From the IMG/VR virus record IMGVR_UViG_2850790056_000003: DNA of 16,924 nucleotides; one strand, written 5' to 3'. This DNA comes from a virus (Duplodnaviria; Heunggongvirae; Uroviricota; Caudoviricetes). Made by a program: the position numbers. Each line of letters opens with the position of its first letter. Position 1 is the first letter of the stretch. Below are positions 3,001-6,000 of the stretch, in pieces.

Positions 3001-6000
3001 CCCAGACCTGATTTGGTGCTGTAGGAGCGAACGTCTGGTTCAGCAGATTTGGCGCAACTGGCAGATTATGGTTCGAGTTCGTAGTCGCTCTGAACTTGCG
3101 TTTCTGCTTACAGCGTAGCCTTAGCTCCTTACGAAGACGTGCCAGTCGGTCACGACCAACGATGATGCCATTCTCTGCCAGCTCCGTCTGGAGCCGCCGG
3201 GTTCCATATGTTTCGCGAGTGCGGATATGTGCCACCTTAATCTCCAGTTTTAGCCGCTCATCACTTTGTTTTCTGTCTGAGGGTTCATGCTGTACCCAGT
3301 TGTAATAACCGCTCCTGGATACACCAAATACCTGACACATCGCTTCAATGGGAAATTGTTGTCGCCATTGTTCGATTAACGCGTATTTTTCAGCGACTCC
3401 TGTGCAAAATACGCTGTTGCTTTTTTTAATATATCTCGCTCAAGGCGAGCTTCATTTAACGCCTTACGCAGTTGCAGAATTTCAGATTCCAGTTCAGCCA
3501 CCGTGCGGGAACCAGGAGTACCGAGCCCTTTTCTGGCGGCGGTAACCCATTGTCCTAAAGGGCCTTCAGGAAGGGATAATCGGGAAGCGCCTTCACTGAT
3601 CGAAAGTTGATTTTCAAGAACCGTTCTGACAGCTTCGGCTTTGAACTCTTTAGAGTAACGTTGGGTTTTTCTGCTCATTATTAGCTCCTTCTGATGCCAT
3701 TCTATTTCAGGAAGGAGTGTCCGTTAAACTCAGGCTACCTCAGTCGTCGGACAGTTGCCTGGCTCCTCTGGTGATGAGATGTTCCCCTCACTCACAACTG
3801 GCTGGATGAACTCCGCACCATAACCAGCTGTCGAAATCAGCGCACTACCATAAGGCTGCCACCCTTCCTTCAGTTTTTGAGTTATTCGTTTCGCAAGGTC
3901 TGACGGCGACGCCACCCTGACAACATCATAGTGTTTAAATGCCATGAATCCTCCCGGCCGGGATAATATTGTGAGTAAAATAAGGAGCGGGCTGAAGTCC
4001 GGAAGTTACAGGACAATGGCAGAAGGGAGACTACAGCCCGCAATTCGAAAAAGGTCGCGCAGTTGCGCAGAGTGATTACTATGGGGTATTATTCGCCAGC
4101 TGAAATATTACTTCACGTTTCATTGTTTATTCCTTGCCGCCCGCGTCTCCCAGCGCGGGCTTTTTTGTCCATAAGAAAGCCCCTCCGGAGAGGGGCTGGA
4201 GAGTGGCGCGATGTGCCATTGTATGGTGCCGGGTGCCTCCCGGTGAGTTCAGCCCGGTGCCACTAAACCCGCGTCATTCTCGTTTTGATAATCAGAGATT
4301 ATACCGTCACCAGTCGCCCCTCCGCTCAGGGGGATTCACCATGCAGTTTTTTCTAACAAATTCTCATCCGGGCAGACAACATTCAACTGACTTAATTGTG
4401 AGGTATGTAACATTCCTGTTGAACGGATACAAAAAAAGCCAGCCACCAGGGGAGGCTGGCAAACTCGTAGAGCAAAATGCTGTTACGCAAACTTCGTTAC
4501 AGGGTTATCCTGCAATACTTAAAATATACAATATTTAGAAAACTAATAGTGCCATATGAGATTTTTAAGATTTTGTTATTAATTGCGGTCGCACCTTCCT
4601 TTCTGTGTACTTTCCGTATAGCTCACAGGATTCTGGGTACAAAAAAACCCGCGCATCGGCGGGTTCGGCTGCGTGGCAATGTAACCACTCTTATCATGAT
4701 ATGCAGATTTTTACGTACGTAAAATACTTTTTTGGCATCCCACTTTATTCAGGTATGGAATCAAACAAGAGGACCGGGGTTCTACGGCGCTTTACACCCC
4801 CTCGGGCGAGGATTTTCGAGCTCTTTTTTTACCACATAGCAATGTATTCAGTCGGCGTTGTTTGGGGCTTCTGCATGGACGACACCAGCTTTGCGGCCTT
4901 TTCTTATTCCCACAAATTCTGAATCCGAATTTTTTCTCAATTTCCTCATCAGAGACAGCTATTTTGCCGCAGAGGGGGCAAGTGTGCTTTTTATCATACT
5001 CGGTTTTCAGCACCTCAATTAACTTACGAATTAATGGCTTGATGTCATAAACGTTCCGCAAATCATAATCATGACCGATTTGAGCATAACTTATCTTCTG
5101 CAACATCCCTTTCTCCTCCAGGCGTTGAAAGCCTTCTTCTATAATGGCACGAGATGCACGCATTCTGGTGGCAAAAAGAGATATTGACGGTAATGTTTGT
5201 GAATCTACATCCTGATGAAATGTAGACTGGCCCCCTGAATCTCCAGACAACCAGTATCACTTAAATAAGTGATAGTCTTAATACTAGTTTTTAGACTAGT
5301 CATTGGAGAACAGATGATTGATGTCTGAGGTAGACTGAGTTGGTGATGCTTCCAATTAGTAGAACATGTGTTTTTCAATAAACGTCCCGATGACTTTTTC
5401 GTGGATCTCTACTGAACGCGAGAAGCAGATTGTTTTACGAGCCAAGCGCTTAATGCGGGTGCGCAGCGTCAGGTTATTGCGCTCAATCCGTTGGGTGAAT
5501 ATTTTTCCGGTCAGATGCTTATCCTTCGGCACCTCCCGGCCATAGCTGCCCCAGTCGTCGCTGGTGAGCATGCCGATGTTGAATGGCGTAAGCAGTGCCA
5601 GTAGTTCCCGGCAGGTTTCATCGGTACGGGGACCAAAAGTGTAGGCCAGTACCCCCCCTGTTTTGGTGTTATACGCGTACCAGAGCCAGTGTTGCCGGGC
5701 TTTACTGCCAACGAAACTCCATTGCTCATCAAGTTCGCAGATAAGCGCCACATCAGCATGAGCAACGGGCGAAGACGTTATTCGCTTTGGCGTGAGTTTT
5801 TTAAAGTCCGGATGACGGTGTTAATGCCAATTTTCAGTGTCCTGGCGGTATCGCGAACCCCGGCGCCATTGAAGGCCATTTCAGTGATCAGCTCTTTAAT
5901 GCCCGGCTTACGGGCCTCATAAGTGTAAGTGAGCTGAAAAACGCGGTGGCAGTCACGGCAGCGAAATCTGTCATGGCCTTTAGGGTTCTGACCATGGCGG

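What the first reader, a model, noticed from the sequence alone, without database searches (positions are those of the whole stretch)
3946..4791. About 850 bp with no credible ORF but several terminator-like hairpins
Between the small ORF at 3945 and the gene fragment ending at 4792 there is no plausible protein on either strand; the plus-strand ORFs are low-complexity and Pro/Arg-rich. Yet there are a plus-strand terminator (4139-4166), a further GC hairpin (AGCCCCTC-cgga-GAGGGGCT, about 4180-4199) and two minus-strand terminators (4431-4460, 4641-4664). A plausible promoter (TTGCGC-N18-TATTAT, 4063-4092) would give a roughly 67-nt transcript ending at the first terminator. This density of termination signals suggests one or more small RNAs, possibly a type I toxin-antitoxin-like or regulatory RNA locus, or tandem terminators for the upstream gene.
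Basis: seen in the sequence. Interest (0 to 1): 0.45.

Follow-up and report, generated by a model that had tools for sequence, protein, structure and literature searches.

The report
Prophage late-promoter leader with known sRNAs
The "empty" 850 bp is the well-described leader of a lambda-like prophage's late operon, left stranded between insertion sequences in Shigella dysenteriae type 1; it carries the late promoter, its terminators and three already described Hfq-binding small RNA genes (StxS, STnc100, EcOnc08/21/42), so it is real but ordinary.

Summary
In detail: there is no credible ORF, and terminator-like hairpins are about four times more frequent than in shuffled sequence.

The region should be read on the minus strand. 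It is the Q-to-nanS-p leader of a Stx-phage-like lambdoid prophage, 96-99% identical to E. coli prophages. It contains:

- **Late promoter and StxS.** pR', a qut motif and two terminators map base-for-base onto the 933W annotation. They delimit a 258-nt homologue of StxS (Sy 2020).
- **Empty moron site.** 17 nt, where Stx phages carry the tRNA genes and stx.
- **STnc100.** Rfam RF02076, 159.6 bits. It belongs with EcOnc27, EcOnc05 and sRNA103 and is related to PasD.
- **Convergent plus-strand RNA.** It ends at the plus-strand terminator and is homologous to Sakai EcOnc08/21/42.

This [quoted passage not shown] is already reviewed in the literature.

The type I toxin-antitoxin idea is not supported.

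The copy here is Q-less and lysis-less. IS600 cuts nanS-p and an IS2 end cuts the upstream gene. It is identical in at least four S. dysenteriae type 1 assemblies (three complete chromosomes and one draft contig).

Expression in Shigella was not tested.

The parts
4696..4723 (-). Late promoter pR' (-35 TTTACG 4723-4718, -10 TATCAT 4701-4696). The last 22 nt of a 144-aa-type Q gene (4732-4711) overlap it; the rest of Q is absent.
   Evidence: The 933W GenBank feature 'pR'; putative late promoter' maps to exactly 4723-4696, with identical hexamers. The promoter scan lists it. The Q stop maps to 4711.
4675..4682 (-). Motif ACATTGCC (+8..+15), annotated as 'qut; putative Q-utilization' in phage 933W.
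   Evidence: Feature mapping from AF125520, identical sequence. Function not tested.
4432..4689 (-). Homologue of StxS-L, the 258-nt pR'-to-tR' transcript. TSS A at 4689, 3' end in the U-tract at 4432.
   Evidence: 96.3% identical over 4732-4432 to Sakai Sp5 and 94.4% to Sp15. The published TSS, the +173 cleavage site and the +258 3' end (PMC7547250) fall on A 7 nt after the -10, on GU|AUU, and in the U-tract. This holds once the v1-to-v2 coordinate shift is applied (+142 at Sp5, +135 at Sp15).
4641..4666 (-). t1: early intrinsic-terminator-like hairpin plus U7 at +24..+49 of the pR' transcript.
   Evidence: 8 pairs, 5 GC. 933W feature 'possible rho-independent terminator upstream of the tRNA genes' maps to 4663-4641. 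Fold of 4689-4638 gives -21.9 kcal/mol, z -3.5. Invariant in the 8 distinct StxS loci seen.
4432..4516 (-). StxS-S, the processed stable 3' sRNA. RNase E site GU|AUU at 4518-4514, cut between 4517 and 4516. rpoS-pairing core CCCUGUAACGAA at 4504-4493. tR' hairpin and U-tract at 4460-4432.
   Evidence: Identical to Sp5 StxS2 except 2 nt in the terminator loop. The second 933W terminator feature maps to 4460-4432. Fold -29.8 kcal/mol, z -3.7. The core is complementary to UUCGUUACA-AGGG in the rpoS leader.
4415..4431 (-). Empty 'moron' site: 17 nt between tR' and the STnc100 block. Related phages carry ileZ-argN-argO here (about 450-470 bp), plus stx in Stx phages.
   Evidence: Homology to Nil3, phi296 and Sp5 breaks at 4432 and resumes between 4414 and 4401, depending on the phage.
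4167..4372 (-). STnc100-family sRNA gene (same family as EcOnc27, EcOnc05 and sRNA103; related to PasD). Terminator hairpin 4197-4178 followed by UUUCUUAU. The conserved block starts earlier, at about 4414.
   Evidence: Rfam RF02076, 159.6 bits against gathering score 47, model 1-206 of 206. Sp5 copy scores 207.7 bits. Block boundary. Literature.
4098..4166 (+). Short form of the convergent plus-strand RNA ('type A' allele). Predicted start about 4098-4099, 5' hairpin, GU-rich single strand, terminator 4139-4160 plus T6.
   Evidence: Fold -18.7 kcal/mol, z -3.4. The Sakai Sp4 Hfq-CRAC peak EcOnc08 maps to window 4093-4164. The terminator helix is 92% paired across 19 alleles, with 2 pairs changed on both sides.
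4063..4092 (+). Promoter-like TTGCGC-N18-TATTAT of the short plus-strand RNA.
   Evidence: Both hexamers are the same in every type-A allele listed among the 97 type-A loci. The -35 is shared with the AsxR and AgvB-like alleles, which read TTGCGC-N17-TAAAAT. In AsxR the primary 5' end was mapped experimentally (PMC4104026).
4002..4087 (+). Upstream part of a longer plus-strand, Hfq-bound transcript, antisense to the nanS-p 5' UTR. Equivalent to the EcOnc21 and EcOnc42 peaks. Start not mapped.
   Evidence: Peak coordinates from Tree 2014 Table S2 were mapped through Sp4 and Sp15. Northern size about 271 nt. Candidate starts would give about 193 or 231 nt.
3946..4166 (-). 5' UTR of nanS-p on the late strand, including a weak hairpin plus U5 (4069-4047) that overlaps the plus-strand -35.
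3730..3945 (-). Truncated nanS-p (DUF1737 N-terminus), fused into an IS3-family (IS600-like) end at about 3742. Outside the finding; it is the downstream boundary.

Best explanation
The segment is the late-operon leader of a Stx-phage-like lambdoid prophage, read on the minus strand. In this genome (Shigella dysenteriae type 1) it has lost Q upstream and the lysis genes downstream to IS insertions.

**Mechanism**
1. Host sigma70 RNA polymerase starts constitutively at pR' (TSS 4689). Without a Q antiterminator it stops at t1 (about +49) or at tR' (+258).
2. The 258-nt product is cut by RNase E at GU|AUU (+173). This yields StxS-S, an Hfq-bound sRNA that pairs with the rpoS leader and with the stx1B ribosome-binding region.
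3. Downstream of the empty moron site lies a dyad of convergent Hfq-binding sRNA genes. STnc100 is on the late strand. The EcOnc08/21/42-type RNA is on the opposite strand. Their terminators stand back to back, 4197-4167 and 4139-4166.
4. In an intact phage, Q-modified polymerase would read through all late-strand terminators into nanS-p and the lysis genes. In a lysogen or a remnant, the terminator cassette keeps those genes silent, and its by-products are regulatory RNAs.

**Shown here:** sequence identity, conserved landmarks, the covariance-model match, and conservation of the plus-strand terminator.

**Taken from published EHEC work:** transcription start and 3' end, RNase E processing, Hfq binding, and the targets.

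**Inferred:** that the same happens in this Shigella remnant.
For: - The same Q - leader - nanS-p - holin/lysozyme order is annotated in E. coli genomes at 96-99% identity.
- The 933W features pR', qut and both terminators map onto identical window sequence.
- Identity to the StxS loci of Sakai Sp5 and Sp15 is 96.3% and 94.4%. TSS, the +173 RNase E motif and the +258 3' end coincide.
- The window keeps the rpoS-pairing core.
- STnc100 scores 159.6 bits over the full model.
- In Sp5 the STnc100 copy is convergent with AsxR. Tree 2014 describes convergent sRNAs at this site in eight Sakai prophages. [quoted passage not shown]
- The plus-strand allele is the one in Sp4 and Sp15, where the Hfq-CRAC peaks EcOnc08/21/42 lie.
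- Across three allele types the plus-strand terminator keeps pairing, with compensatory changes.
- The tRNA cassette sits at the 4431/4415 junction in related phages.
Against: - No expression data exist for this genome.
- The window has no Q gene, so antitermination cannot be part of its present function.
- t1 looks like an efficient terminator, yet the published primary transcript is 258 nt. The share of transcripts that reach tR' is unknown.
- I found no convincing sigma70 promoter for STnc100.
- The published Northern size of the plus-strand RNA (about 271 nt) does not match the 68-nt prediction.
- The StxS family varies too little for a covariation test.
Confidence: 0.9

Rival explanations
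1. A type I toxin-antitoxin or similar locus: a small toxic peptide gene controlled by an overlapping antisense RNA.
For: Convergent short transcription units with strong terminators resemble hok/sok- or ibs/sib-type layouts. A 14-codon ORF with a good SD (AAGGA 4134-4130, ATG 4122-4120, minus strand) lies fully antisense to the plus-strand RNA.
Against: No Rfam antitoxin or toxin-leader family hits, even at E <= 1. The 14-codon ORF is hydrophilic (MKREVIFQLANNTP). Its ATG is ATA or ACA in sister alleles that keep everything else. The 32-aa ORF with a hydrophobic stretch (4490-4392) starts at TTG without an SD, runs through the tR' hairpin, and is not conserved beyond it in Sp5.
Confidence: 0.02
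2. A degraded protein-coding region (pseudogene debris) whose hairpins are incidental.
For: The surrounding prophage is heavily decayed by IS elements. Plus-strand ORFs of 67-134 aa exist and match PHROG families of unknown function.
Against: The same non-coding arrangement is intact and 96-99% identical in inducible or complete phages and in many E. coli prophages. PGAP calls neither a CDS nor a pseudogene there. Indels between alleles mostly break the frame. The structure-aware STnc100 model matches end to end. The hairpins coincide with experimentally mapped RNA ends in EHEC.
Confidence: 0.02
3. The terminators matter only as insulation. The RNAs are inert by-products with no trans function in this host, so the remnant is neutral debris that has simply not yet been deleted.
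For: The flanking genes are destroyed. Divergence is too low to show purifying selection (100% identity among the SD1 genomes checked). Targets are unknown for EcOnc08/21/42 and only suggested for STnc100.
Against: StxS has demonstrated trans targets in EHEC (rpoS, stx1B). Its seed and processing site are intact here. pR' needs no phage factor.
Confidence: 0.3

Closest known systems
StxS (EcOnc15), the pR'-tR' early-terminated transcript of Stx phages Sp5, Sp15 and 933W (Sy, Lan & Tree 2020, PMC7547250)
   Same: Same promoter hexamers, TSS position, 258-nt length, RNase E GU|AUU at +173, tR' hairpin and rpoS-pairing core. Identity is 96.3% to Sp5 and 94.4% to Sp15.
   Different: It is not next to a Q gene: only the last 22 nt of Q remain, preceded by a phrog_34160 gene fragment. 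It is not followed by tRNA genes or stx. It sits in a non-Stx prophage remnant of Shigella dysenteriae type 1. Two nt differ in the terminator loop.
STnc100 (Rfam RF02076), the family of EcOnc27/sRNA103 (Sp5/933W) and EcOnc05 (Sp4), related to PasD1/PasD2 of EPEC
   Same: Full-length covariance-model match. Same place upstream of nanS-p. Same terminator AGCCCCUC-N4-GAGGGGCU as the Sp4 copy.
   Different: It scores lower than the Sp5 copy (159.6 against 207.7 bits). The central part has its own indels. The TTGACA-like motif ahead of the model start reads TTGAAT here.
EcOnc08/EcOnc21 (Sakai Sp4) and EcOnc42 (Sp15), Hfq-bound RNA of about 271 nt with unknown targets (Tree 2014; Sy & Tree 2021)
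   Same: Same allele ('type A'), nearly identical over 4166-4003. Same convergent position, terminator and promoter-like hexamers.
   Different: Three substitutions lie in the GU-rich single-stranded stretch (CACGUUUCAUUGUUU here, CACGUUUUGUUGUUU in Sp4). Here the antisense partner gene, nanS-p, is truncated.
AsxR (RF02703) and AgvB (RF02702) anti-sRNAs
   Same: Same convergent position opposite STnc100. Shared -35 TTGCGC. Related core (UACUUCACG against UAUCUCAUG). The terminator is homologous, with compensatory changes.
   Different: Neither Rfam model hits the window. There is a 16-nt insertion between the core and the terminator. The predicted length is about 68 nt rather than 51-60 nt. 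The 5' region differs, so the sponge targets (FnrS, GcvB) are not expected to be the same.
Phage lambda pR'-6S RNA-tR' with Q antitermination
   Same: Same logic: a constitutive late promoter, a promoter-proximal Q-loading site, and early termination that Q overrides.
   Different: No sequence similarity was tested. The Q family differs (144-aa PF06530 type). There are two tandem terminators and a 258-nt rather than 194-nt product (the lambda figure is from my own knowledge). The product has acquired sRNA functions.

Membership tests
StxS (pR'-tR' transcript of 144-aa-Q Stx phages) | Sequence homology to StxS1/StxS2 over the whole 258 nt (the two published copies share 94%) | tested here: met
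   96.3% to Sp5 and 94.4% to Sp15 over 301 nt including the promoter
StxS (pR'-tR' transcript of 144-aa-Q Stx phages) | Encoded directly downstream of the short (144-aa) Q gene | tested here: not met
   Only the last 22 nt of Q remain (4732-4711). The upstream ORF is a phrog_34160 fragment. The same Q-distal arrangement exists in E. coli NMBU-W12E19
StxS (pR'-tR' transcript of 144-aa-Q Stx phages) | pR' hexamers, TSS, RNase E GU|AUU at +173, intrinsic terminator ending at +258 | tested here: met
   All landmarks are present at the expected spacing
StxS (pR'-tR' transcript of 144-aa-Q Stx phages) | Seed able to pair with the rpoS leader site used by DsrA, RprA and ArcZ | tested here: met
   CCCUGUAACGAA (4504-4493) is complementary to UUCGUUACA-AGGG in the rpoS leader. 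The StxS-S body is identical to Sp5. The whole-duplex energy is not significant against shuffles (65 of 500)
StxS (pR'-tR' transcript of 144-aa-Q Stx phages) | Transcribed, Hfq-bound, processed to a 74-nt species | not testable with these tools
   Needs a Northern blot or Hfq co-IP in S. dysenteriae
STnc100 (Rfam RF02076) | Covariance-model score at or above the gathering threshold (47 bits) over the full model | tested here: met
   159.6 bits, E 2e-36, model 1-206 of 206, 4372-4167 minus strand
STnc100 (Rfam RF02076) | Prophage late-region position between the late promoter or moron and the esterase/lysis genes, ending in an intrinsic terminator | tested here: met
EcOnc08/21/42 (type A convergent RNA) | Sequence identity to the Sakai Sp4/Sp15 loci under the Hfq-CRAC peaks, on the strand opposite STnc100 | tested here: met
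   Window 4166-4002 aligns almost without mismatch to Sp4 L126 1437-1602. The peaks map to 4093-4164 and 4002-4087
EcOnc08/21/42 (type A convergent RNA) | Hfq binding and a Northern band of about 271 nt | not testable with these tools
   Published for EHEC Sakai only
AsxR / AgvB anti-sRNAs (RF02703 / RF02702) | Covariance-model match, i.e. the conserved 3' region of about 42 nt | tested here: not met
   No hit in 3600-5400 at E <= 1. The same models score 88.1 and 40.9 bits on Sp5
AsxR / AgvB anti-sRNAs (RF02703 / RF02702) | Convergent position opposite STnc100, with the TTGCGC -35 promoter and a GCCCG-stem terminator | tested here: met
Type I toxin-antitoxin | Conserved small (usually hydrophobic) toxin ORF with an antisense RNA overlapping it | tested here: not met
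   No conserved ORF. The start codon of the only SD+ATG mini-ORF is lost in sister alleles. No Rfam TA family hits

The most novel reading that the evidence does not exclude
In Shigella dysenteriae type 1 the stx operon has IS600 immediately upstream (PMC7819885). This Q-less, lysis-less remnant elsewhere in the chromosome may therefore be a domesticated sRNA cassette. Its constitutive pR' would supply StxS in trans to raise RpoS and damp StxB translation. The type-A plus-strand RNA, whose GU-rich single strand varies at just three positions between alleles, would be a trans-acting regulator with a diversifying seed rather than only an antisense of nanS-p. A sub-point: t1 at +24..+49 would release a roughly 49-nt IsrK-like RNA not reported so far in the papers I could read.
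Probability: 0.25. Interest if true: 0.45.

Novelty: already known. Interest (0 to 1): 0.15.

Why it matters
For annotation, the point is that such 'empty' stretches between Q and the lysis genes of lambdoid prophages should be labelled pR'/StxS, STnc100 and the convergent anti-sRNA-type gene. StxS and the type-A RNA did not match any Rfam 15 family in this scan, so automated pipelines miss them.

Biologically, the only mildly new point is that an intact StxS/STnc100/EcOnc08 cassette persists, identical in at least four S. dysenteriae type 1 assemblies, in a prophage wreck that can no longer make Q, nanS-p or lysis proteins. If it is expressed, a phage-derived sRNA known to activate RpoS and repress Stx1 translation in EHEC would also act in the classical Shiga bacillus.

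Tried and rejected
- **Coding reading.** PHROG and Pfam scans of five local ORFs gave only 'unknown function' mini-families that mirror the DNA conservation. Rejected.
- **Type I toxin-antitoxin.** Rejected; see the rival explanations.
- **tR' as annotated in phage Nil3.** It maps to window 4587-4519, which is AT-rich and does not fold (-2.4 kcal/mol, z +0.6). That annotation is misplaced. The 933W annotation fits.
- **Weak Rfam hits** (Qrr, Trp_leader, VqmR, anti-hemB; E 0.16-0.7). These are terminator-hairpin look-alikes.
- **A sigma70 promoter for STnc100.** I compared 49 distinct upstream contexts and found no conserved -35/-10 pair. Left open.
- **A start for the 271-nt plus-strand RNA.** Only candidates giving 193 or 231 nt turned up. 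Left open.
- **Covariation test of the StxS hairpins.** Impossible: 8 distinct sequences with almost no variation.
- **Source organism by junction pattern** in GTDB representatives: no hit. It was solved instead by exact look-up of the 71-aa truncated protein and a paper that names the accessions.
- **Second GTDB scan, with the type-A core.** It found only a probably contaminated MAG contig.
- **Supplementary TSS tables of Sy 2020.** Not held.
- **Plunkett 1999.** Not held.
- **Prevalence.** The count (4966 of 5426 genomes) is inflated by the IS ends inside that query, so I do not use it.
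Full report
**1. Observation.**

- A consensus scan of 3600-5400 finds 8 terminator-like sites against 2.1 +/- 1.9 in dinucleotide-preserving shuffles.
- These include the plus-strand hairpin 4139-4160 followed by T6.
- They include the perfect hairpin AGCCCCTC-CGGA-GAGGGGCT at 4178-4197.
- They include two minus-strand terminators, with stems at 4462-4443 and 4666-4645.
- The promoter-like TTGCGC (4063-4068)-N18-TATTAT (4087-4092) is there as well, although it matches only 8 of 12 consensus positions.

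No ORF is credible.
- The longest are Pro/Arg-rich plus-strand frames of 67-134 aa.
- RefSeq annotates nothing in the 96-99% identical stretch of E. coli genomes.
- Alleles differ by many indels, most of which break the frame.

**2. Context and origin.**

The flanks identify the locus.
- The 71-aa ORF at 3945-3730 (minus) is the DUF1737 N-terminus of the phage esterase NanS-p, fused into an IS3-family (IS600-like) element.
- In E. coli prophages and phages the same DNA lies between the Q antiterminator gene and nanS-p. DUF1378, DUF826, holin, lysozyme and Rz follow. The segment must therefore be read on the minus strand, as the leader of a lambdoid late operon.
- Upstream, 4792-5250 (minus) is the C-terminal 152 codons of a phrog_34160 gene (DnaD_N-like domain plus a CxxC...CxxC motif). 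It is cut at about 5229 by what I recognise from memory as an IS2 end, followed by IS1.
- An exact look-up of the truncated 71-aa protein finds it in 4.38-4.40-Mb chromosomes CP061527, CP026774, CP026777 and CP026878, and in contig AXUT01000467.
- A genome paper names the four chromosomes as Shigella dysenteriae serotype 1 strains HNCMB 20080, ATCC 13313, 69-3818 and 07-3308 (PMC7819885).
- Window 3730-5250 is 100% identical in CP061527, CP026878, CP026774 and the contig. CP026777 differs by a single gap.

**3. pR', its terminators and StxS.**

The GenBank record of phage 933W annotates five features downstream of Q: pR', a qut motif, two 'possible rho-independent terminators upstream of the tRNA genes', and a tRNA promoter. 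The first four map base-for-base onto the window:
- pR' at 4723-4696, with identical TTTACG and TATCAT hexamers;
- qut ACATTGCC at 4682-4675;
- terminator 1 at 4663-4641;
- terminator 2 at 4460-4432.

Sy, Lan and Tree (2020) showed the following in EHEC Sakai (PMC7547250).
- pR' is constitutively active.
- Its transcript ends 258 nt downstream, at tR'.
- The transcript binds Hfq.
- RNase E cuts it at GU|AUU (+173), giving a stable sRNA called StxS.
- StxS activates rpoS translation and represses stx1B.

Window 4732-4432 is 96.3% identical to the Sp5 locus and 94.4% to Sp15. The published coordinates refer to the older Sakai record, so I applied a shift of +142 at Sp5 and +135 at Sp15. Three landmarks then line up at once, which validates the shift:
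- the TSS falls on an A 7 nt after the -10 (window 4689);
- +173 falls on the U of GU|AUU (4517);
- +258 falls in the terminator U-tract (4432).

The StxS-S body is identical to Sp5 except for 2 nt in the terminator loop. It retains CCCUGUAACGAA (4504-4493), which is complementary to UUCGUUACA-AGGG in the rpoS leader.

The first terminator, t1, is invariant in all StxS loci I collected. It folds as a canonical terminator. How much transcription it stops is not stated in the texts I could read.

**4. Empty moron site.**

Homology to Nil3, phi296 and Sp5 ends at 4432 and resumes between 4414 and 4401, depending on the phage. The 17 nt at 4431-4415 take the place of the ileZ-argN-argO cassette (about 450-470 bp), plus stx in Stx phages.

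**5. STnc100.**

- Rfam RF02076 matches 4372-4167 (minus) end to end at 159.6 bits (gathering score 47).
- In Sp5 the homologous copy (207.7 bits) lies 75 nt after stx2B.
- It corresponds to the Hfq-bound, Northern-verified EcOnc27/sRNA103. EcOnc05 is the Sp4 copy.
- EDL933 carries eleven STnc100 copies, one of which was confirmed by Northern blot.
- A 2026 preprint links STnc100 to the PasD sRNAs of EPEC, next to Q and the sialic-acid esterase gene.
- The conserved block begins about 40 nt before the model start in every upstream context. I could not find a convincing sigma70 promoter.

**6. The plus-strand unit.**

Tree et al. (2014) reported that the moron site downstream of pR' carries convergent sRNA genes in eight Sakai prophages, for example EcOnc27 and AsxR after stx2B. 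In Sp5, Rfam places AsxR immediately opposite STnc100.

I collected 125 loci anchored on the nanS-p 5' UTR: the window, earlier-fetched phage and E. coli loci, and IMG/VR contigs. The spot holds three allele types:
- the window's 'type A', 97 loci;
- the AsxR type, 11 loci;
- an AgvB/EcOnc03-like type, 16 loci.

What these alleles share:
- All three share the -35 TTGCGC.
- The -10 is TATTAT in type A and TAAAAT in the other two types.
- The terminator helix stays 92% paired across 19 distinct alleles. Two pairs change on both sides, and no register shift comes close.

The Rfam AsxR and AgvB models do not hit the window, so it is not a member of those families.

Type A is, however, the allele of Sakai Sp4 and Sp15.
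- There the Hfq-CRAC peaks EcOnc08, EcOnc21 and EcOnc42 were recorded, with a Northern band of about 271 nt and unknown targets.
- EcOnc21 and EcOnc42 map to 4002-4087, further 5' on the same strand and antisense to the nanS-p 5' UTR.
- A short and a longer form are therefore both possible. Candidate upstream promoters would give about 193 or 231 nt.

**7. How it works.**

In an intact phage, Q loads at pR' and lets polymerase read through t1, tR', the STnc100 terminator and a weak hairpin at 4069-4047, into nanS-p and the lysis genes. Without Q the cassette keeps those genes silent. Its by-products, together with the dyad genes, are Hfq-binding regulators.

In this Shigella remnant Q and the lysis genes are gone, so only the RNA outputs can remain. 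That they are expressed here is an inference from the intact sigma70 promoter and the identical sequence. It is not shown.

**8. Rivals.**

- Type I toxin-antitoxin: no family hit and no conserved small ORF.
- Degraded coding region: contradicted by conservation in intact phages, by frame-breaking indels, and by the structured-RNA match.
- 'Inert leftovers': cannot be excluded for this host.

**9. Verdict.**

Every component has already been described, in Plunkett 1999 (933W annotation), Tree 2014, Sy 2020, Sy & Tree 2021, and Rfam RF02076. Novelty: already known. Interest: low.

Residual points of interest:
- the orphan, IS-flanked cassette in S. dysenteriae type 1;
- the unexplained strength of t1;
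- the unmapped starts of STnc100 and of the type-A RNA;
- the fact that neither StxS nor the type-A RNA matched any Rfam 15 family in this scan.

Noticed in passing
window 13110-13321 (+), compared with 4735-4636 (-): Rfam isrK (13134-13209, 61.8 bits) and C4 antisense RNA (13234-13321, 76.4 bits) sit upstream of a Rha-family ORF (13453-13869). The isrK locus aligns with the pR'-qut-t1 module. They share the -10-to-+1 region, ATTGC.AC (the 933W 'qut' motif) and the terminator tail TTTTTTTGTA. The isrK model also weakly hits 4642-4718 (17.9 bits, E 0.54). IsrK-type RNAs may be relatives of early-terminated late-promoter transcripts.
   Followed up: partly
window 4641-4666 (-): t1 is a textbook intrinsic terminator only 24-49 nt after the pR' start. 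It is invariant in all StxS loci seen and is annotated in 933W. Yet the published primary transcript is 258 nt. A roughly 49-nt RNA may exist.
   Followed up: partly
window 4078-4134 (-): A 14-codon ORF (MKREVIFQLANNTP) with a good SD lies on the late strand, fully antisense to the plus-strand RNA. Its ATG is ATA or ACA in other type-A alleles, so it is probably not a gene. The same three positions are the main variable sites of the plus-strand RNA's GU-rich single strand.
   Followed up: yes
window 4733-5250 (-), and L001 5036-6141: pR' is preceded not by Q but by a phrog_34160 gene (DnaD_N-like domain plus a CxxC...CxxC motif, function unknown). In E. coli NMBU-W12E19 a 126-aa PF06530 Q gene lies upstream of that gene, so Q and its promoter are separated by an inserted gene. 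In the window the gene is truncated by an IS2 end (identified from memory) and Q is absent.
   Followed up: partly
window 9291-12517 (+): An S24/CI-like repressor (9291-10004) is followed by an Eco57I-type methylase (10044-11567) and a PstI/BsuBI-type restriction endonuclease (11564-12517). This is a restriction-modification system inside the prophage remnant.
   Followed up: no
window 289-1811 (-): Mu-like Mom (289-1026), Com (947-1135) and a Gin/Pin-type invertase (1218-1811) lie next to the IS600-like element. Pfam assignments come from the identical SD1 locus.
   Followed up: no
window 2522-3678, 5229-7320, 14252-15091: Dense pile of insertion sequences: an IS3-family (IS600-like) element, an IS2-end fragment, IS1 (InsA and InsB), a second IS3-family element, and another rve transposase. 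This is typical of S. dysenteriae type 1. A ResIII/DEAD helicase fragment lies at 7361-8080.
   Followed up: no
L135 (NZ_JBNATZ010000065.1) 7413-7433: The only GTDB species representative holding the type-A RNA core is a contig of a 'Desulfofundulus sp.' MAG. This is most likely contamination with E. coli prophage DNA.
   Followed up: no
L003 (phage Nil3, AM051322) 1646-1714, equivalent to window 4587-4519: The 'late terminator tR'' annotated in the Nil3 record falls on an AT-rich stretch that does not fold (z +0.6). It lies between the two real terminators and looks like a misplaced annotation.
   Followed up: yes
window 16322-16924 (-): An alpha-amylase-domain ORF runs off the window end. 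It is probably a chromosomal gene flanking the prophage remnant (possibly ycjM, a guess from my own knowledge of the ycj cluster mentioned in PMC7819885).
   Followed up: no
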